A stretch of DNA of 64,000 nt, taken from assembly GCA_000004985.1 (NCBI GenBank), contig GG738876.1; one strand, 5' to 3'. Source of the stretch: Naegleria gruberi (taxonomy: Eukaryota). Of the stretch, positions 3,107-57,819 are shown piece after piece. Under the pieces are notes generated by a model. That model had not been told where the DNA came from. It searched no databases and worked only from the letters and a program-made list of their open reading frames with translations. A program made the position numbers and the translations under genes. Every line of letters starts with the position of its first letter. Within the stretch, counting starts at the first letter, position 1.

Positions 3107-4006
3107 ATGTCGACAAGGGTGACTGAAAGTATTCACAGGTTGCTCTCCTCCTTCAGATCTCTTGACTCTCTGTTGGAATCTTCAGGAGTGGAACACAAAC
3201 ACGAATCACTCAATGTTCTCAAAGGTTATCTTGTAAATAGAAGGAATAGCGAATTGATGGAGTGTATTCTCTTCATCAGAAATTGTAATAATAATGTATA
3301 TACTGTAGATAGTTTCATAGAATTTTATAGAGAGTTTATCAATGTAAATAGTAACAAGTCCTTGAATTTACCAAGCCAAGCAATTCAACAAGCTTTTGAT
3401 CTCTATCAACAATTAACCTGTACAAAAGTCATTTCAAATCATCAATTAATTTCACTCAAGATTGAATCAATTATAAAGAATATTTTCAATCTTATTGAGT
3501 ATCAGATAGATATTGAAATATTACCACAATTCAGAAAGTCAACTGAATACAAGACATATATTTTAGAGAAAGTCATCGAGTTGGGAAGTGATAATCCGCA
3601 ACAACCATCTGGTTTATCTTCTTCACAGAGGGGAAGTTGCCATGACTTGACAGCACATTTAGATGATGCACTTTCGGATTCTGATCAAGATCAGCTCGAT
3701 AAGTCAACAACTATCGAACATATGTTAAAGGAGGGTAACATGTTGGAACATCTCAAAGCATTCCAAAAGAAAAAATTAATTCATCTCTATCAGATTAAAG
3801 ACTTTACAACGCAAGATCTAAAAGACAAGATTGGTATTAAAAAGATTGGACATTTGAAAAGAATTGTACGTCTAGTTAATCAACATTTCAATAATAAACC
3901 CAACGATCTTTCATTGTATTGGTTTGGCTCATTCTCTTTTCACATTTTGTTCCTAACATTTCTCATTGAGAAAGAATGTATTCAGTCTCAATTAGATTCT
4001 GATTGA
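3107..4006 (+). CDS. Hypothetical protein with a C-terminal SAM (sterile-alpha-motif)-like segment
   Basis: ORF of 299 aa; the segment EHLKAFQKKKLIHLYQIKDFTTQDLKDKIGIKKIGHLKRIV fits the SAM consensus. Confidence 0.4.
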   Translation: MSTRVTESIHRLLSSFRSLDSLLESSGVEHKHESLNVLKGYLVNRRNSELMECILFIRNCNNNVYTVDSFIEFYREFINVNSNKSLNLPSQAIQQAFDLYQQLTCTKVISNHQLISLKIESIIKNIFNLIEYQIDIEILPQFRKSTEYKTYILEKVIELGSDNPQQPSGLSSSQRGSCHDLTAHLDDALSDSDQDQLDKSTTIEHMLKEGNMLEHLKAFQKKKLIHLYQIKDFTTQDLKDKIGIKKIGHLKRIVRLVNQHFNNKPNDLSLYWFGSFSFHILFLTFLIEKECIQSQLDSD

Positions 4007-4332: not shown

Positions 4333-5310
4333 ATGAAAACAAGTTTAATTATTGCAGCAATTGCAATTCTACTCTTCATTGCAGTTGTACAAGCAACTGA
4401 CAGCTATGCTCCAAAGCCTGACAGTTATGCTCCAAAGCCAGACAGTTACAAGCCACCTGTTAAGAGAGTGTGCAAGAAGAAATGTGTTGCTCACAAGTAT
4501 GTCAATGGAAAGTGTTTGAAACATAAGATTGTTGGTCAAAAGAAGGTCTGTGATAAGTATGCTATTGTTGGTGCTGGAAAATGCTTGAAATACAAAAAGT
4601 TCTCCAAGTGTGACAAGTACAGTAAGCCAATTAAGAAGTGTGTTAAGCATGCATACAAGAAGACTACTTGTGCTAAGAAGAAGTACTGGAAGGTTTGCGA
4701 TTCTTATGGAAGTAAGAAGGTCTGTGCTAAGAAGGCAAGCAAGAAGTATTGTGCCAAGTATGAAAATGTCACCAAGTGTGTCAAACATGCTACCAAGAAG
4801 GTCTGTAAGAAATTCAAGAAGGTTCCAATTAAGAAGTGTGAAAAGAAGAAGGTCTGTGACAAGTACACCACTGATTCATATGCTCCAGCCAAGTGCAAAT
4901 ATGTTAAGAAGTGTAAGGTTGTCTCCTATGCTAAGAAGTGTTGTCAATATAAGAAGATTAAGTATTGTAAGCAAAAGAAGACTTTCAAGAAGTGTTGTCA
5001 ATATAAGACTAAGCATTATTGTGCCAAGCATAAGACTATCAAATTCTGTAAGCACAAGAAGACTTTGAGCAAGTGTATCAAGTACAATAAGAAGAAGTAC
5101 TGTTGTCAATATAAGACCATTCCTTCCAAGTGTATCCATAAGAAGCATTGGAAGAAGTGTGTTAAAAAGTCAAAGGGAAAGAGAATTTGTAAGAAGCACA
5201 AGTTGACTGGTGGAAAGAAGGTCTGTAAGAAGTATGCTCAAAAGAAGGTCTGTGCTAAGAGAAAGAAGGTCTGTAAGAAGGTTGACTCTTATTTTGGTAA
5301 GAAGTGGTAA
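4333..5310 (+). CDS. Secreted, extremely Lys/Cys-rich repetitive protein
   Basis: N-terminal signal peptide MKTSLIIAAIAILLFIAVVQA; DSYAPKP repeats; dozens of KKVC / KKCCQYK units. The antisense ORFs in this region are repeat artefacts. Confidence 0.7.
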   Translation: MKTSLIIAAIAILLFIAVVQATDSYAPKPDSYAPKPDSYKPPVKRVCKKKCVAHKYVNGKCLKHKIVGQKKVCDKYAIVGAGKCLKYKKFSKCDKYSKPIKKCVKHAYKKTTCAKKKYWKVCDSYGSKKVCAKKASKKYCAKYENVTKCVKHATKKVCKKFKKVPIKKCEKKKVCDKYTTDSYAPAKCKYVKKCKVVSYAKKCCQYKKIKYCKQKKTFKKCCQYKTKHYCAKHKTIKFCKHKKTLSKCIKYNKKKYCCQYKTIPSKCIHKKHWKKCVKKSKGKRICKKHKLTGGKKVCKKYAQKKVCAKRKKVCKKVDSYFGKKW

Positions 5311-5417
5311 GGTGAAGGAGATGAAACAATTTTGAAAATTTTGTAATTTTGAAATGAAATAGTGAGAATAAATGTGTTCACCTTAATATATATTCGAAAT
5401 GATCATATCATGCTTCT

Positions 5418-13854: not shown

Positions 13855-15183
13855 ATGAATCATCTTAAACGATTGATTGTTTTGGCTCTTGTAGTTGTAC
13901 TCATGTTTGTCGTCTCACTTTCACATGCTCAAGACGAACAACAGGAAAACAACAATAAGAGACCACCAAGACCTTTACCTTCAGGTAGACCACCAAGACC
14001 ACATCCAGATCATTCTGGAGGGCGACCACCTCGCCCATTCCCATCTGGAGGAAGACCACCACGTCCAGATCATTCAGGAAGAAGACCAAGACCAGATCAT
14101 TCTGGTGAGAGACCACATCCACCAGGTCCACAACCAGATCATTCAGGAAGAAGACCACCAAGACCTGGTCCACATCCTGGTCAATCAGGATTACCACCAC
14201 GTTCTGATGAACAAGATGGTCAAAGTGAAAATAGACCTCGTCCACCAAGACCTCATCCAGAACGTTCAGGTGAAAGACCACATCCAAGACCTTTCCCATC
14301 TGGAGGTAGACCACCAAGACCAGACCACTCAGGAAGAAGACCAGGTCCACATCCAGATCATTCTGGAAGACCACCTCGTCCACATCCAAGACCAGAACCA
14401 TCTTCTGAAGATGACGAACACTCTGATAGACTTGAACAAGGAAACAGACCTCGTCCACCAAGACCAGATCGTTCAGGTTTGCCACCTCGTCCATTCCCAT
14501 CTGGAGGAAGACCACCAAGACCAGATCATTCAGGAAGAAGACCACATCCAAGACCTGAACACTCTGGTGAGAGACCACATCCAAGACCAGCTCACTCTGG
14601 TGAAAGACCACCAAGACCAGATCATTCAGGAAGAAGACCAAGACCAGGTCCACAACCAGACCAATCGGGAAGACCACCTCGTCCTTATCCAGAACATTCT
14701 GGTGAAAGACCAGGCCCACGTCCTCAACCACAAGAATCAACTTCATCCTTAATAGGTGAAAGACCACCAAGACCTGATAGATCTGGAAGACCACCTCGTC
14801 CATTCCCATCTGGAGGCAGACCACCAAGACCAGGCCCATCTGGAGGAAGACCAGGTCCTGGACCAGGTCCACAACCTGATGTTTCATCTGTTGAAGATCC
14901 ACTCATTGATGCTCAAAATAATACCAAGAATGAAATTCCAAATGGACCATCCAATGGTTCTGATGCTTTGGCCATTGTCTTTGGTGTTATTGGTGCAATT
15001 GTTGTCATGGCTGCTATTGCTCTTGTCATTGGAAGTGGAATTGCTGTTTTTGTTTTGAAGAAGAAGGGTTATTCACTCTCATTGAAGAAACATCAAATGT
15101 TGAGAGATGAAGACGAATTTGAATATCCACAACAAGACCAAACTCCAATTTACTCTGTCAATCAACCAGTTGCTCAAAATTAG
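13855..15183 (+). CDS. Pro/Arg/His-rich tandem-repeat type I membrane protein (extensin/mucin-like)
   Basis: Signal peptide MNHLKRLIVLALVVVLMFVVSLSHA; about 25 degenerate units of RPPRPDHSG(R/E)RP; C-terminal TM IVFGVIGAIVVMAAIALVIGSGIAVFVL and cytoplasmic tail. Antisense ORF 13901..14902 is a repeat artefact. Confidence 0.75.
   Translation: MNHLKRLIVLALVVVLMFVVSLSHAQDEQQENNNKRPPRPLPSGRPPRPHPDHSGGRPPRPFPSGGRPPRPDHSGRRPRPDHSGERPHPPGPQPDHSGRRPPRPGPHPGQSGLPPRSDEQDGQSENRPRPPRPHPERSGERPHPRPFPSGGRPPRPDHSGRRPGPHPDHSGRPPRPHPRPEPSSEDDEHSDRLEQGNRPRPPRPDRSGLPPRPFPSGGRPPRPDHSGRRPHPRPEHSGERPHPRPAHSGERPPRPDHSGRRPRPGPQPDQSGRPPRPYPEHSGERPGPRPQPQESTSSLIGERPPRPDRSGRPPRPFPSGGRPPRPGPSGGRPGPGPGPQPDVSSVEDPLIDAQNNTKNEIPNGPSNGSDALAIVFGVIGAIVVMAAIALVIGSGIAVFVLKKKGYSLSLKKHQMLRDEDEFEYPQQDQTPIYSVNQPVAQN
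13960..14880 (+). repeat. Coding tandem repeat array (27-36 nt units encoding RPPRPDHSGRRP)
   Basis: Recurring agaccaccaagaccagatcattcaggaagaagacca-like units are visible directly in the sequence. Confidence 0.8.
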
Positions 15184-18062: not shown

Positions 18063-20207
18063 ATGCCTGCAACACACTCAAAAGTAGAATTGCCAACCAA
18101 GAGTGATTATTGGCTTGAACAAATGATTCTTGATATGATTCATTCGTTTGATGGACTCACCGCTAGGAAAGTACTCACAAGTAAATATACATACATTGCA
18201 ATTGCACTTGCTGTTGCTGTCAAGTTTGGTTCATCCTACTTGTTAAAAAAGAAGAAGAAGAATTTACCAGCACACAACAAACCACGTTCCTCAAATACAT
18301 CAAAAGATTCCACTTTGAAAAAGTTCTGGAGTTTGGTTAAAATTGGTCTTTTTAATCCAAATGGAGCAGGAAATTCTAGTGCAATGAAATATAAAACAGA
18401 TCCTGCCAATGGAAGAGAAATATGGATTATGGTTGGCCTTGCTTCCCTTGTTATCTTCCAAACATATATTGTTAATAGAAACAACAGTGTCAGTGGTGAC
18501 TTGATGGCTAGTTTAGTTGCCAGAGATTCTGCAACTTGTATTTATAGATTACTCCAAATTACAGGTATTTTAATCTTACAATCTCTGGTCAATCCATCCG
18601 TTACATCACTTATTGAAACACTTGCTTTGAGAATGAGAAAGAATTTGACTATGGATATTCATGATCGTTATTATACAGATATGGTTTACTATAAGATTTT
18701 GAATTTGGATAAGAGAGTTGGTGCTCCAGATCAAAGAATTACTCAAGATGTTGAAGTTTTCTGCAAACAATTCTCTGAATTATTTATGGATCTCTTGAAT
18801 CCAATTGTAGAAGTTTTATTGTATACTTACGAGCTTACTAGATTGATTGGTTCTGGTGGTCCACTCAGTATTATTTCATATGTCGTCATTGCCTTTGGTG
18901 TTTTGGGTATGGTCACACCAAACTTTACAAAGATGTCATCTGAAGTTCAAAATAAGGAAGGTAAATTCAGATCCATTCACAATAGATGTAAGAATAATGC
19001 CGAACTTGTTGCCTTCTATGCTGGTGAAGAAACTGAACGTTTGAAGATTGAAAAACAATTCGAAGAATTGACATCATACAGTGACTATGTCATTAACAAG
19101 AATTTCTTATTCGGTGTTGTTAATGATTACTTTACCAAATATTCTCCTCATGCTGTTACCTCAGTCATTGTTGGTATTCCAGTCTTCTTTGGTAGATTAC
19201 GTCCATTGCCAAAGGACAAACTTATGGGTCAATTGAGATATTTAATCTCTGTTGTTGCATTTGAATTCTTTGCTTTGGGTAAAATCATTGAACTTTTCAG
19301 AAAGATTTTGAAATTGTCAGGTATGACACAACGTGTCCACTTGTTGTATCAAGTCATGGATGAACTCAAGCATGGTAACTCTGATAATGTTAACTTTAAG
19401 TTAAAGTCTGCCAAGGCTGGTGGTTCAGGAGGTGAAATTCTTGAAAGTGATGAAATCAAATTTGACAATGTCATTATCAGAACACCAGATAATATTACAT
19501 TGGCTCGTAATTTATCTTTCAATGTTGGTAAGAATCAACACATTGTTATTACTGGTCCAAATGGAGCTGGTAAATCATCATTGTTTAGAATTTTGGGTTC
19601 TTTGTGGCCTCTTCACAGTGGTATTGTCTACAAACCACAAGCTAAGGGTTCAAATGCTCAAGGTTTGCACAAGGAAATCTTCTACTTACCTCAAAAGCCA
19701 TACAATGTTATTGGATCTCTTCGTAGTCAAATTATCTATCCTGATACGCAATTGAAGGATGGATGGAAAGATTCTAATTTGAAGGAACTTTTGGATGACT
19801 TTAGTATTGGTTATTTGGCAGGACGTCACTCAGATGGATTTGATGGTAAACAAGATTGGGACACCTTGTCAAGAGGTGAACAACAAAAATTGGCCATGGT
19901 TCGTCTTTTCTACCACAAGCCAAAGTATGCCATTTTGGACGAATGTACCTCATGTATTTCTGCCGACTCTGAACAAGAATTATACGGAAGATGTGCCAAG
20001 AATGGTATTACTTGTATCACTATTTCACACAGACCAGCCCTCGAAAAGTATCACACTCAAAGACTTGTTTTCAATGGTATGGGTGGTTGGAAATGGGAAG
20101 CCATTAAGGAATGGACTGAAGAAAGTTCTAGTTATGAAGTTAAGGGTGAAGATAATACATTCCGTGACGATAAGGAAGAGGAAGCTGTTGAAGCAACCAA
20201 AGAATAA
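18063..20207 (+). CDS. ABC transporter, subfamily D (peroxisomal-type half transporter)
   Basis: N-terminal TMD then NBD with Walker A GPNGAGKSS, ABC signature LSRGEQQKLAMVRLFYHKPKYAILDEC and ABCD-specific C-terminal region. Confidence 0.85.
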   Translation: MPATHSKVELPTKSDYWLEQMILDMIHSFDGLTARKVLTSKYTYIAIALAVAVKFGSSYLLKKKKKNLPAHNKPRSSNTSKDSTLKKFWSLVKIGLFNPNGAGNSSAMKYKTDPANGREIWIMVGLASLVIFQTYIVNRNNSVSGDLMASLVARDSATCIYRLLQITGILILQSLVNPSVTSLIETLALRMRKNLTMDIHDRYYTDMVYYKILNLDKRVGAPDQRITQDVEVFCKQFSELFMDLLNPIVEVLLYTYELTRLIGSGGPLSIISYVVIAFGVLGMVTPNFTKMSSEVQNKEGKFRSIHNRCKNNAELVAFYAGEETERLKIEKQFEELTSYSDYVINKNFLFGVVNDYFTKYSPHAVTSVIVGIPVFFGRLRPLPKDKLMGQLRYLISVVAFEFFALGKIIELFRKILKLSGMTQRVHLLYQVMDELKHGNSDNVNFKLKSAKAGGSGGEILESDEIKFDNVIIRTPDNITLARNLSFNVGKNQHIVITGPNGAGKSSLFRILGSLWPLHSGIVYKPQAKGSNAQGLHKEIFYLPQKPYNVIGSLRSQIIYPDTQLKDGWKDSNLKELLDDFSIGYLAGRHSDGFDGKQDWDTLSRGEQQKLAMVRLFYHKPKYAILDECTSCISADSEQELYGRCAKNGITCITISHRPALEKYHTQRLVFNGMGGWKWEAIKEWTEESSSYEVKGEDNTFRDDKEEEAVEATKE

Positions 20208-51077: not shown

Positions 51078-51150
51078 CGCCCCACGTGGGGCTCGAACCC
51101 ACGACCGTTGGATTAAAAGTCCAACGCTCTACCGACTGAGCTAGCGGGGC
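51078..51150 (-). tRNA. tRNA-Lys (anticodon UUU), intronless
   Basis: Minus-strand read GCCCCGCTAGCTCAGTCGGTAGAGCGTTGGACTTTTAATCCAACGGTCGTGGGTTCGAGCCCCACGTGGGGCG. It has a 7-bp acceptor stem with one G-U pair, D-loop AGTCGGTAGA, anticodon loop CTTTTAA and T-loop GGTTCGAGCC. Confidence 0.9.
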
Positions 51151-57746: not shown

Positions 57747-57819
57747 TGGAGATGCGGGGTATCGATCCCCGTACCTCTTCCATGCTAAAGAAGCGCTCTA
57801 CCATGTGAGCTACATCCCC
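57747..57819 (-). tRNA. tRNA-Ala (anticodon AGC), intronless, with G3:U70 identity pair
   Basis: Minus-strand read GGGGATGTAGCTCACATGGTAGAGCGCTTCTTTAGCATGGAAGAGGTACGGGGATCGATACCCCGCATCTCCA. Acceptor GGGGATG/CATCTCC gives G3-T70; anticodon loop TTAGCAT. Confidence 0.9.

What the first reader, a model, noticed from the sequence alone, without database searches (positions are those of the whole stretch)
4333..5310. Secreted protein with extreme Lys/Cys content and KKVC / KKCCQYK repeats
After a clear signal peptide and three DSYAPKP repeats, the protein is mostly Lys and Cys: more than 50 Cys, recurring CxK, KKVC and CCQYK units, and Lys at about one third of residues. This composition is reminiscent of antimicrobial or defensin-like polycationic peptides, metallothionein-like metal binders or structural cross-linked wall proteins. 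It has no obvious homologue by eye.
Basis: seen in the sequence. Interest (0 to 1): 0.5.

Follow-up and report, generated by a model that had tools for sequence, protein, structure and literature searches.

The report
Secreted lysine-rich cystine-ladder hairpin protein
This is a real, conserved gene of a Naegleria-type amoeba for a secreted protein that is one-third lysine, and its 30 framework cysteines sit in mirror-image positions, implying one very long disulfide-runged beta-hairpin rod; the family occurs only in Naegleria and Willaertia and its function is untested.

Summary
The ORF at 4333-5310(+) is real: 325 aa, a signal peptide, 32.6% Lys and net charge about +97. It has 33 Cys, not more than 50. 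A 326-aa metagenome orthologue keeps 32 of the 33 Cys, with pN 0.22 against pS 0.72. Relatives are few: 23 hits among 1.84 billion representative proteins. The named ones are hypothetical proteins of Naegleria gruberi, N. fowleri, N. lovaniensis and Willaertia magna. Pfam and PDB give no match.

The main result is structural. The Cys sites are mirror-symmetric about the DSYAPAK linker (175|188). All four subfamilies have equal numbers of sites on each side (15/15, 17/17, 18/18, 19/19). Irregular gaps fall at matching rungs, and cysteines are lost in mirrored pairs. Gene duplication cannot produce a mirror pattern, so the two halves must pair antiparallel. That makes one long beta-hairpin with about 15 disulfide rungs, one every 9 residues. 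An AlphaFold2 model (pLDDT 75.7, all-beta) agrees. Tyr/Pro/Lys "DxY" motifs sit at both tips of the rod.

Function is inferred only. I favour an extracellular cross-linked wall or matrix polycation. A bacteria-binding or antimicrobial polycation is the main rival. A metallothionein-like role and an ORF artefact are rejected.

The parts
4333..4395 (+). Signal peptide, aa 1-21 (MKTSLIIAAIAILLFIAVVQA, predicted cleavage VQA|TD)
   Evidence: Hydrophobic core with mean Kyte-Doolittle 3.05 and a V-x-A cleavage motif. Equivalent N-termini occur in all full-length relatives. No SignalP-type tool was available.
4396..4470 (+). N-terminal Cys-free tail, aa 22-46: DSYAPKP, DSYAPKP, DSYKPPVKRV (Tyr/Pro/Lys 'DxY' motifs); lies at the open tip of the hairpin
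   Evidence: 21-nt tandem repeat at 4399-4448, 2.4 copies, 93% matches. AF2 pLDDT is below 50 here, so the tail is probably disordered. The DxY motif recurs at the termini of relatives in variable copy number, e.g. KVDTYKPPK x4 in P0053 and IDSYKP x3 preceded by IDTYKP in N. fowleri P0007.
4471..4857 (+). N arm of the hairpin, aa 47-175: 15 Cys sites (47, 51, 61, 73, 84, 93, 103, 113, 122, 131, 140, 149, 158, 169, 175), mostly 9 residues apart
   Evidence: Cys positions and spacing. Mirror match to the C arm. AF2 strands 45-67, 70-79, 84-96 and 100-175.
4858..4893 (+). Hairpin loop or linker, aa 176-187 (DKYTTDSYAPAK), carrying DxY motifs at the closed tip
   Evidence: It is the largest Cys-free gap and the centre of the mirror symmetry. 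AF2 predicts no strand at 176-187. Relatives have a DxY motif at the same place.
4894..5274 (+). C arm of the hairpin, aa 188-314: 15 Cys sites (188, 194, 203, 212, 221, 230, 239, 248, 257, 267, 276, 286, 298, 307, 314), plus three extra Cys (204, 222, 258) as the second residue of CC doublets
   Evidence: The outward spacing vector 6,9,9,9,9,9,9,9,10,9,10,12,9,7 mirrors the N-arm vector 6,11,9,9,9,9,9,10,10,9,11,12,10,4. AF2 strands 188-263, 267-279, 283-292 and 295-316. Degenerate 27/54/81-nt DNA periodicity at 4932-5117, 64-77% matches.
5275..5310 (+). C-terminal tail, aa 315-325 (KKVDSYFGKKW), with one DxY motif, followed by the TAA stop
   Evidence: AF2 pLDDT is below 50 for residues 318-325.
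5367..5372 (+). AATAAA hexamer 57 nt after the stop codon (possible polyadenylation signal)
   Evidence: Its function is inferred only.

Best explanation
The ORF is a genuine gene of a Naegleria-type (vahlkampfiid heterolobosean) amoeba. It encodes a secreted member of a small, uncharacterised, lineage-restricted protein family.

After signal-peptide removal, the 304-aa protein has a pI of about 10 and a net charge of about +97. I infer that it folds as one very long antiparallel beta-hairpin. The N arm (aa 47-175) zips against the C arm (aa 188-314) through about 15 cysteine rungs spaced 9 residues apart. The predicted pairs are 175-188, 169-194, 158-203, 149-212, 140-221, 131-230, 122-239, 113-248, 103-257, 93-267, 84-276, 73-286, 61-298, 51-307 and 47-314. 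The result is a stiff, disulfide-laddered, lysine-coated rod. Fully extended, the arms would span tens of nanometres.

Short Tyr/Pro/Lys 'DxY' motifs sit at both tips of the rod: in the two tails at the open end and in the loop at the closed end. One to three extra cysteines lie next to rung cysteines and have no mirrored partner.

The most likely function is an extracellular structural or adhesive building block, either in the cyst wall or in a surface matrix. In this reading the lysine arrays bind anionic wall polymers, and the tip motifs and spare cysteines cross-link rods to each other.

Shown here: the gene is real and under purifying selection; the family exists, and its named members are all Naegleria or Willaertia; the cysteines are mirror-symmetric and are lost in mirrored pairs.

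Inferred: the disulfide connectivity, the rod shape, secretion, and the whole function.
For: Gene reality. The ORF is complete, with an upstream in-frame stop. The orthologue on metagenome contig L006 is 326 aa and 67% identical, with pN 0.22, pS 0.72 and dN/dS of about 0.1. It keeps 32 of 33 Cys, and 97 of 105 aligned Lys remain Lys or Arg. About 26 Cys columns are invariant in 10 full-length relatives. Orthologue identities are ordinary: 52% between N. gruberi and N. fowleri, and 63% between N. gruberi and N. lovaniensis.

Family. There are only 23 hits at E<=1e-3 in 1.84e9 representative proteins, and the three weakest look like unrelated Cys-periodic repeat proteins. Every named member comes from Naegleria or Willaertia. 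There is no Pfam or PDB match.

Hairpin.
- Cys-site counts are equal left and right of the largest gap in subfamilies A, B and C: 15/15, 17/17 or 15/15, and 18/18. In subfamily D, where the centre was found by scanning every split, the count is 19/19.
- Spacing vectors match in mirror orientation (sum|d| 6-22; P<=2e-4 against shuffles) and not in direct orientation (18-48).
- Large irregular gaps fall at the same rung: 17 against 18, 17 against 24, 12 against 12.
- Cysteines are lost as mirrored pairs.
- Residues at -1, +1 and +3 from each Cys are hydrophobic, and those at -2, +2 and +4 are basic, as expected for a beta-strand.
- The AF2 model with a 17-sequence alignment has pLDDT 75.7, is all-beta, has long strands 100-175 and 188-263, and has strand breaks at roughly mirrored positions.
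- The best, non-significant, Foldseek hits are long beta-hairpin pore stems.

Secretion. The signal peptide is present in the query and in the full-length relatives, and there is no other hydrophobic segment.

Possible high expression. Lys codons are 90% AAG, against 52% in other ORFs of the window.

Structural role. This rests on the elongated rod, the variable-copy Tyr/Pro/Lys tip repeats, the unpaired extra Cys in most members, and the ordinary evolutionary rate.
Against: No expression, localisation or biochemical data exist for any family member. Gene identifiers were found in no paper or held supplement. One review states that stage-specific expression data for Naegleria are very limited (PMC9928731).

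The model coordinates could not be inspected, so Cys-Cys distances are unverified.

A 9-residue (odd) rung spacing puts successive rungs alternately in hydrogen-bonded and non-hydrogen-bonded register. Cross-strand disulfides are normally found only in the non-hydrogen-bonded register (my own knowledge). Regular bulges, strong twist, or non-rung bonding of some cysteines would therefore be needed.

The divergent paralogue P0002 does not show significant mirror matching (P=0.45).

The AAG codon bias is not shared by the orthologue L006 (61 AAG, 43 AAA), and it could simply reflect avoidance of poly-A runs.

Neighbouring genes give no functional hint.
Confidence: 0.45

Rival explanations
1. It is a bacteria-binding or antimicrobial polycation. 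The amoeba secretes the cationic cystine-laddered hairpin, or delivers it to phagosomes, to agglutinate or permeabilise bacterial prey or competitors. On this reading it is a giant relative, in principle only, of protegrin-, tachyplesin- or theta-defensin-type hairpins.
For: The charge is extreme (+97, pI about 10), and all relatives are basic, with pI 9.2-10.8. There is a signal peptide. The strands are disulfide-braced, with hydrophobic residues alternating with basic ones. Naegleria is a bacterivore (my own knowledge). The cystine-ladder hairpin is the architecture of known cationic antimicrobial peptides (PMC13408038 and PMC6152268, listed).
Against: The protein is 304 aa when mature and is conserved as one unit, with no conserved processing sites. 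Orthologues evolve at an ordinary rate under purifying selection, not the rapid diversification typical of antimicrobial peptides. Subfamily D members are over 700 aa with only 13% Lys, yet keep the same framework. A rod tens of nanometres long is not a membrane-inserting hairpin.
Confidence: 0.25
2. The protein has the same function but a different fold. On this reading the C-x8-C units form local disulfide-closed short hairpins (a beta-meander) or a disulfide-cored beta-solenoid with 18-residue coils, rather than one giant hairpin.
For: The 9-residue period is strict. Gly, Thr and Pro are enriched 4-5 residues from each Cys. A C-x8-C loop would place both Cys in a favourable non-hydrogen-bonded register (my own reasoning). 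AF2 confidence is only moderate, the alignment is shallow at 17 sequences, and pTM is 0.28.
Confidence: 0.2
3. It is a polyprotein precursor that is cut at basic sites into many small Lys/Cys peptides.
For: There are 35 KK positions, 3 KR and 1 RK. A KR lies immediately before the first Cys (aa 44-45).
Against: With 33% Lys, KK sites are expected everywhere and carry no information. The KR at aa 44-45 is absent in subfamilies B and C. The mirror symmetry spans the whole molecule. The units are not separated by conserved spacers.
Confidence: 0.05
4. It is a metallothionein-like metal-binding protein.
For: It has many cysteines (33).
Against: It has a signal peptide, so it passes through the oxidising secretory pathway. 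Cys is only 10%. There are no CxC or CxxC motifs and only one CxxxC. It contains 25 Tyr, 6 Phe and 3 Trp. The mature protein is 304 aa.
Confidence: 0.02
5. The ORF is an artefact: an open frame kept open by AAG-rich, low-complexity DNA.
For: Other frames of the same region also carry ORFs of 139-152 codons. The DNA is AAG-rich.
Against: A full-length orthologue is under purifying selection. The Cys framework is conserved in four subfamilies and four named species. The DNA repeats are old and degenerate, at 64-77% matches. The signal peptide and start position are conserved.
Confidence: 0.01

Closest known systems
Cystine-ladder cationic beta-hairpin peptides (theta-defensins such as RTD-1; protegrins, tachyplesins)
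   Same: They have two antiparallel strands held together by parallel disulfide rungs, are strongly cationic, and are made through the secretory pathway. The concept is described in PMC13408038 and PMC6152268.
   Different: Those peptides are 16-18 residues long, with 2-3 rungs two residues apart. This protein has about 130 residues per arm and about 15 rungs nine residues apart. There is no sequence relationship. No antimicrobial activity has been shown for this family, and the protein is not processed into small units as far as conservation indicates.
Cys-rich repeat wall and matrix proteins of other protists: Entamoeba Jacob lectins, Acanthamoeba Leo lectins, Cryptosporidium COWP, Dictyostelium EcmA/B and spore-coat proteins (recalled from my own knowledge)
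   Same: They have a signal peptide, many regularly spaced cysteines in short repeats, and low-complexity Pro/Thr/Lys-rich spacers. They are lineage-restricted and act as extracellular structural proteins.
   Different: No Pfam model of any such family matches the query or seven relatives. The cysteine pattern here (C-x8-C, mirror-symmetric over the whole protein) and the 33% Lys content are unlike them. Wall localisation is untested for this family.
Tyr/Lys/Pro(/Cys)-rich cross-linking proteins: mussel foot proteins Mfp-1 and Mfp-6, plant extensins with the Val-Tyr-Lys motif, trematode eggshell precursors (recalled from my own knowledge)
   Same: They carry tandem short motifs that combine Tyr, Lys and Pro (here DSYAPKP, DSYKP and KVDTYKPPK), in variable copy number. 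They are secreted and basic, and Mfp-6 contains Cys.
   Different: In this protein the motifs are confined to the tips of a Cys-laddered core. Nothing was examined that bears on DOPA, dityrosine or hydroxyproline formation in Naegleria. There is no sequence homology.
Disulfide-braced repetitive beta-structures such as the Tenebrio molitor antifreeze protein (12-residue coils with one internal disulfide per coil) and granulin hairpin stacks (recalled from my own knowledge)
   Same: A short sequence period carries one Cys per half-repeat, there is little hydrophobic core, and disulfides act as the main brace.

Membership tests
The uncharacterised Naegleria/Willaertia Lys/Cys family (e.g. NAEGRDRAFT_67458, _76199, _64508, _48501, _66117, _57793; FDP41_004030, _008345, _002578; C9374_009239; ABK040_005866) | Significant full-length sequence similarity | tested here: met
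   E-values run from 1.6e-88 to 1.3e-21 against six relatives. The profile search gave 23 hits.
The uncharacterised Naegleria/Willaertia Lys/Cys family | A conserved Cys framework that is mirror-symmetric, with equal numbers of Cys sites on the two arms | tested here: met
   About 26 Cys columns are invariant. The query has 15/15 sites, with mirror sum|d| = 8 and P = 1.5e-4. The same holds in subfamilies B, C and D.
The uncharacterised Naegleria/Willaertia Lys/Cys family | An N-terminal signal peptide and DxY motifs at the termini or linker | tested here: met
Metallothionein | A small (<10 kDa) cytosolic protein with 15-30% Cys in CxC/CxxC/CC clusters and few or no aromatic residues | tested here: not met
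   The mature protein is 304 aa, has a signal peptide and is 10.9% Cys. It has no CxC, no CxxC and 3 CC. It contains 25 Tyr, 6 Phe and 3 Trp.
Defensins (CS-alpha-beta, or alpha/beta-defensin folds) | A 30-50 aa domain with 6-8 Cys in the family-specific pattern, recognisable by Pfam models or PDB relatives | tested here: not met
   The only Pfam match up to E=10 is DUF4148 on the signal peptide, at E=0.2. The PDB profile search gave 0 hits at E<=10. The spacing is C-x8-C.
Cystine-ladder beta-hairpin antimicrobial peptides (theta-defensin, protegrin, tachyplesin) | Two antiparallel strands joined by parallel disulfide rungs | tested here: inconclusive
   Mirror symmetry and paired loss of Cys support the topology, and AF2 predicts all-beta structure. 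The disulfides themselves were not observed.
Cystine-ladder beta-hairpin antimicrobial peptides | A mature peptide of about 16-20 residues with demonstrated antimicrobial activity | tested here: not met
   On size, the feature fails: the mature protein is 304 aa and is conserved as one unit. Activity cannot be tested with these tools.
Known protist wall-protein families with Pfam models (e.g. the Dictyostelium Cys-rich repeat, oocyst-wall and chitin-binding families) | A match to the family's profile HMM | tested here: not met
   No Pfam family matched the query at E<=0.1, and none matched seven relatives at E<=0.01.
Cyst-wall protein (functional class) | Induced during encystment and located in the wall | not testable with these tools
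   No expression or proteomic data for the family were found in the held papers or supplements.

The most novel reading that the evidence does not exclude
The family represents a protein architecture not described before. It would be a two-stranded beta-ribbon rod tens of nanometres long, braced by 15-19 mirrored disulfide rungs at a 9-residue pitch. That pitch may be matched to the natural half-twist of a two-stranded ribbon, which would bring all rungs to one side. The rod would carry Tyr/Pro/Lys 'sticky' motifs at both tips and spare cysteines for inter-rod links. It would polymerise into the cyst wall or surface matrix of vahlkampfiid amoebae, including the pathogen N. fowleri.
Probability: 0.3. 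Interest if true: 0.7.

Novelty: new variant of a known kind. Interest (0 to 1): 0.55.

Why it matters
Every family member is annotated only as a 'predicted' or 'hypothetical' protein, and none has a Pfam or PDB relative.

If the mirrored-rung hairpin is real, it is an unusually simple way to build a long extracellular rod, and its design can be read directly from the sequence. It would extend the cystine-ladder principle from 18-residue peptides to a protein of about 300 residues. That would interest structural biologists and protein designers.

If the proteins are cyst-wall or surface-matrix components, they would be among the first molecular components proposed for the Naegleria cyst wall. 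That wall gives N. fowleri its resistance in the environment and to disinfection. Being lineage-restricted and extracellular, the proteins would also be candidate diagnostic or intervention targets.

If they turn out to be antibacterial polycations, they would be a new class of amoebal effector against bacterial prey.

Tried and rejected
Searches that found nothing:
- An exact-sequence look-up found the query and the N. gruberi relatives on no recorded contig. Synteny with N. gruberi could therefore not be examined.
- Pfam on the query and on seven relatives gave nothing. The PDB profile search gave nothing.
- The first AF2 run, with 6 sequences, was poor (pLDDT 54) and was replaced by the 17-sequence run.
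- Literature searches for the gene identifiers, for Naegleria cyst-wall proteins and for lysine/cysteine-rich cyst-wall proteins found nothing relevant.
- Supplements of three transcriptome papers held no usable identifiers. The 1967 paper on the chemistry of the N. gruberi cyst wall is not held.

Genomic context:
- Neighbouring genes are unrelated: a DUF2838 protein, a SAM-domain protein, methyltransferases, a Kelch protein, a Zn-cluster protein and an ABCD transporter.
- There is no second family copy in the window.
- There is no family gene within 10 kb on either side of the N. fowleri orthologue of the neighbouring ABC transporter.
- The alignment-based metagenome locus search failed for lack of conserved blocks. 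The single-protein search then found one orthologue.

Ideas rejected:
- An internal direct duplication of two half-modules. Direct-orientation spacing fits much worse than mirror orientation, and BLAST between the halves shows only register-shifted repeat matches.
- Metallothionein, a defensin fold, a polyprotein precursor and an ORF artefact. These are covered under the rival explanations.
Full report
**1. The observation**

The window is AT-rich (about 33% G+C). A single ORF runs from 4333 to 5310 on the + strand and encodes 325 aa. An in-frame stop lies 22 codons upstream, with no earlier ATG. An AATAAA hexamer lies 57 nt after the stop.

It is not so for cysteine: there are 33 Cys (10.2%), not more than 50. 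There are also 25 Tyr. The mature protein has a pI of about 10 and a net charge of about +97.

Only two DSYAPKP units are exact. The third is DSYKPPV. At the DNA level this is a 21-nt repeat of 2.4 copies. KKVC occurs 7 times, CxK 20 times and CCQYK 3 times.

The cysteines are strongly periodic at 9 residues. There are 16 lag-9 pairs against 3.6 expected, and the maximum in 10,000 shuffles was 11.

The N-terminus MKTSLIIAAIAILLFIAVVQA|TD has the form of a signal peptide. No other hydrophobic stretch exists, so there is no membrane anchor.

**2. It is a real gene of a small, lineage-restricted family**

A word-indexed search of 5.8 billion proteins found six relatives. An exhaustive profile search of 1.84 billion representatives found only 23 hits at E<=1e-3. 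The three weakest look like unrelated Cys-periodic repeat proteins.

Cluster look-ups name the members:
- N. gruberi: NAEGRDRAFT_67458, _76199, _64508, _48501, _66117 and _57793.
- N. fowleri: FDP41_004030, _008345 and _002578.
- N. lovaniensis: C9374_009239.
- Willaertia magna: ABK040_005866.

All are annotated as 'predicted' or 'hypothetical'. The remaining hits come from soil and water metagenomes.

A neighbouring ABCD transporter in the window is 86% identical to its N. fowleri orthologue and 100% identical to an unnamed metagenome contig. The window is therefore from a Naegleria species that has no named entry in the collections.

No Pfam model matches the query or seven relatives. A family profile finds nothing in the PDB.

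A full-length orthologue was recovered from a metagenome contig (L006, 326 aa, 67% identity). Against it, pN is 0.22 and pS is 0.72. That gives dN/dS of about 0.1, although dS is saturated. It keeps 32 of 33 Cys, and 97 of 105 aligned Lys remain Lys or Arg.

About 26 Cys columns are invariant across 10 full-length relatives. Orthologue identity between Naegleria species is 52-63%, which is an ordinary rate.

The DNA-level repeats are old and degenerate, at 64-77% matches. The 'low-complexity artefact' reading is excluded.

**3. The key structural finding: mirror-symmetric cysteines**

I split the Cys sites at the largest Cys-free gap, which in the query lies between 175 and 188 (the DSYAPAK linker). 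CC doublets were counted as one site. This gives 15 sites on each side.

Read outward from the centre, the spacings are:
- N arm: 6, 11, 9, 9, 9, 9, 9, 10, 10, 9, 11, 12, 10, 4.
- C arm: 6, 9, 9, 9, 9, 9, 9, 9, 10, 9, 10, 12, 9, 7.

The summed difference is 8. In direct orientation it is 18, and the mean for shuffled spacings is 23.4 (P = 1.5e-4).

The same holds independently in the other subfamilies, even though they have different insertions:
- Group B has 17/17 sites, or 15/15 in the N. fowleri-type members. A 17-residue gap lies opposite an 18-residue gap at the same rung.
- Group C has 18/18 sites. A 17-residue, Pro-rich, DxY-containing gap lies opposite a 21-24-residue gap of the same character at the same rung.
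- The C-terminal domain of the 700-aa group D has 19/19 sites around a C-x-C tip. Here the centre was found by scanning every possible split.

Where cysteines have been lost, they were lost as mirrored pairs. Alignment columns 208 and 309 are both lost in group B. The two innermost rungs are both lost in the N. fowleri-type group B members.

Gene duplication creates direct repeats, never mirror images, at the protein level. The pattern must therefore reflect physical pairing of the N-terminal arm with the C-terminal arm in antiparallel. The predicted rungs are 175-188, 169-194, 158-203, 149-212, 140-221, 131-230, 122-239, 113-248, 103-257, 93-267, 84-276, 73-286, 61-298, 51-307 and 47-314.

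One divergent paralogue, P0002, has 15/15 sites but its spacings do not match significantly.

**4. Independent support for beta structure**

Across the family, positions -1, +1 and +3 relative to each Cys are hydrophobic in 45-53% of cases. Positions -2, +2 and +4 are Lys or Arg in 36-49% of cases. Gly, Thr and Pro are common 4-5 residues away. This is the alternation expected of a beta-strand.

AlphaFold2 with a 17-sequence alignment gave pLDDT 75.7, with 252 residues at 70 or above. The model is all-beta from residue 45 to 316, with two uninterrupted 76-residue strands (100-175 and 188-263) flanking the linker. Its strand breaks fall at roughly mirrored positions: 68/293, 81/281 and 98/265. 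The tails are disordered.

I could not read the model coordinates, so Cys-Cys distances are unverified.

One caveat comes from general knowledge. An odd rung spacing alternates hydrogen-bonded and non-hydrogen-bonded registers. Regular bulges or strong twist would be needed for every rung to be a simple cross-strand disulfide. A half-twist per 9 residues would also bring all rungs to one side of the ribbon and all hydrophobic clusters to the other. This is speculation.

**5. Anatomy beyond the ladder**

Short Tyr/Pro/Lys motifs of the form (V/I)D(S/T)Y(K/A)P occur only in Cys-free segments. They are found in the N- and C-terminal tails, which lie together at the open tip of the hairpin, and in the central loop at the closed tip. 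In group C they also occur in the two opposed bulges.

Their copy number varies between orthologues. Examples are KVDTYKPPK x4 in P0053, IDSYKP x3 preceded by IDTYKP in N. fowleri P0007, and three units at the N-terminus here.

Most members also carry one to three extra cysteines as the second residue of a CC doublet, with no mirrored partner. In the query these are residues 204, 222 and 258, and the orthologue L006 has two.

Lys codons are 90% AAG, against 52% in other ORFs of the window. Val, Thr, Ile and Phe codons are also biased. This could mean high expression or avoidance of poly-A runs. The orthologue is less biased.

**6. Function (inferred)**

No expression, localisation or activity data exist for any member. 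A pangenome review states that stage-specific expression data in Naegleria are very limited (PMC9928731).

From the architecture alone, I favour an extracellular structural or adhesive building block, in either the cyst wall or a surface matrix. The protein is a secreted, stiff, disulfide-braced, polycationic rod with variable Tyr/Lys/Pro motifs at both tips and spare cysteines. On this reading the lysine arrays bind anionic polymers, and the tips and spare thiols cross-link rods. By analogy (my own knowledge) this resembles the Cys-repeat wall proteins of other protists and Tyr/Lys/Pro cross-linking proteins such as extensins and mussel foot proteins.

The main rival is a bacteria-binding or antimicrobial polycation, because the cystine-ladder hairpin is the design of theta-defensins, protegrins and tachyplesins (PMC13408038, PMC6152268). 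Four things argue against it: the size of the protein, its conservation as one unit, its ordinary evolutionary rate, and the weakly basic 700-aa group D members.

Release of repeat units at dibasic sites is not supported. A metallothionein-like role fails on every defining feature.

**7. Novelty and verdict**

The gene belongs to an uncharacterised family known so far only from Naegleria and Willaertia. The general kind, a secreted, Cys-periodic, cationic repeat protein built on a cystine-ladder hairpin, is known. The scale and the mirror-symmetric design are not known to me from any described family: about 130 residues per arm, with 15-19 rungs at a 9-residue pitch. Neither the structure searches nor the literature searches returned a precedent.

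I rate it a new variant of a known kind, with moderate-to-good interest (0.55). My confidence is high that the gene and family are real, fairly high (about 0.75) that the arms pair as a mirrored hairpin, and low to moderate (about 0.4) for a structural wall or matrix role.

Noticed in passing
window 13855-15183 (+): This ORF of 442 aa has a signal peptide, then about 370 aa of Pro/Arg-rich repeats of the type GGRPPRP(D/H)HSG, then one transmembrane helix and a short tail. It coincides with a local G+C rise to 41%. Pfam finds nothing. It looks like a type I surface protein with a highly basic proline-rich ectodomain.
   Followed up: partly
L007 290-1264 (Logan SRR32051688): A group-A relative of the query carries an in-frame TGA at the position of query residue T112, immediately before a conserved Cys. 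The reading frame continues in register to the normal C-terminus. It could be a pseudogene, a sequencing error or a read-through/recoding site. This was not resolved.
   Followed up: no
N. gruberi NAEGRDRAFT_76199 (P0003): The annotated 443-aa protein joins a SAM and PB1 N-terminal part to only the C-terminal arm of a group-A family member, which is 72% identical to the query. It is probably a chimeric gene model, or a disrupted locus, in the reference annotation.
   Followed up: partly
window 18063-20204 (+) and N. lovaniensis C9374_009235/C9374_009239: An ABCD-type transporter lies 12.7 kb downstream of the family gene in the window. In N. lovaniensis a paralogous ABCD transporter (53% identical) is four locus tags away from a family member, on the same contig. 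This may be an old linkage or a segmental duplication.
   Followed up: no
P0013 and P0027 (relatives): Group-B relatives appear to have an intron after the motif CLGHG. A metagenome gene call reads through into unrelated sequence there, and the N. gruberi model _48501 lacks the next four residues (GYKQ). The query gene (group A) is uninterrupted.
   Followed up: no
window 51078-51150 (-) and 57747-57819 (-): tRNA-Lys(UUU) and tRNA-Ala(AGC) genes.
   Followed up: no
window 3107-4003 (+): The gene immediately upstream encodes a protein with a C-terminal SAM domain (Pfam SAM_1, E=2.7e-6). It showed no similarity to the SAM/PB1 part of P0003 in tblastn.
   Followed up: partly
P0011/P0030/P0054/P0055/P0059 (group D relatives; L003 4825-7053): These members of about 700 aa carry an extra N-terminal region of about 350 aa made of 'CP...C' Cys-rich repeats with no Pfam match, ahead of the mirrored-ladder domain.
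   Followed up: partly
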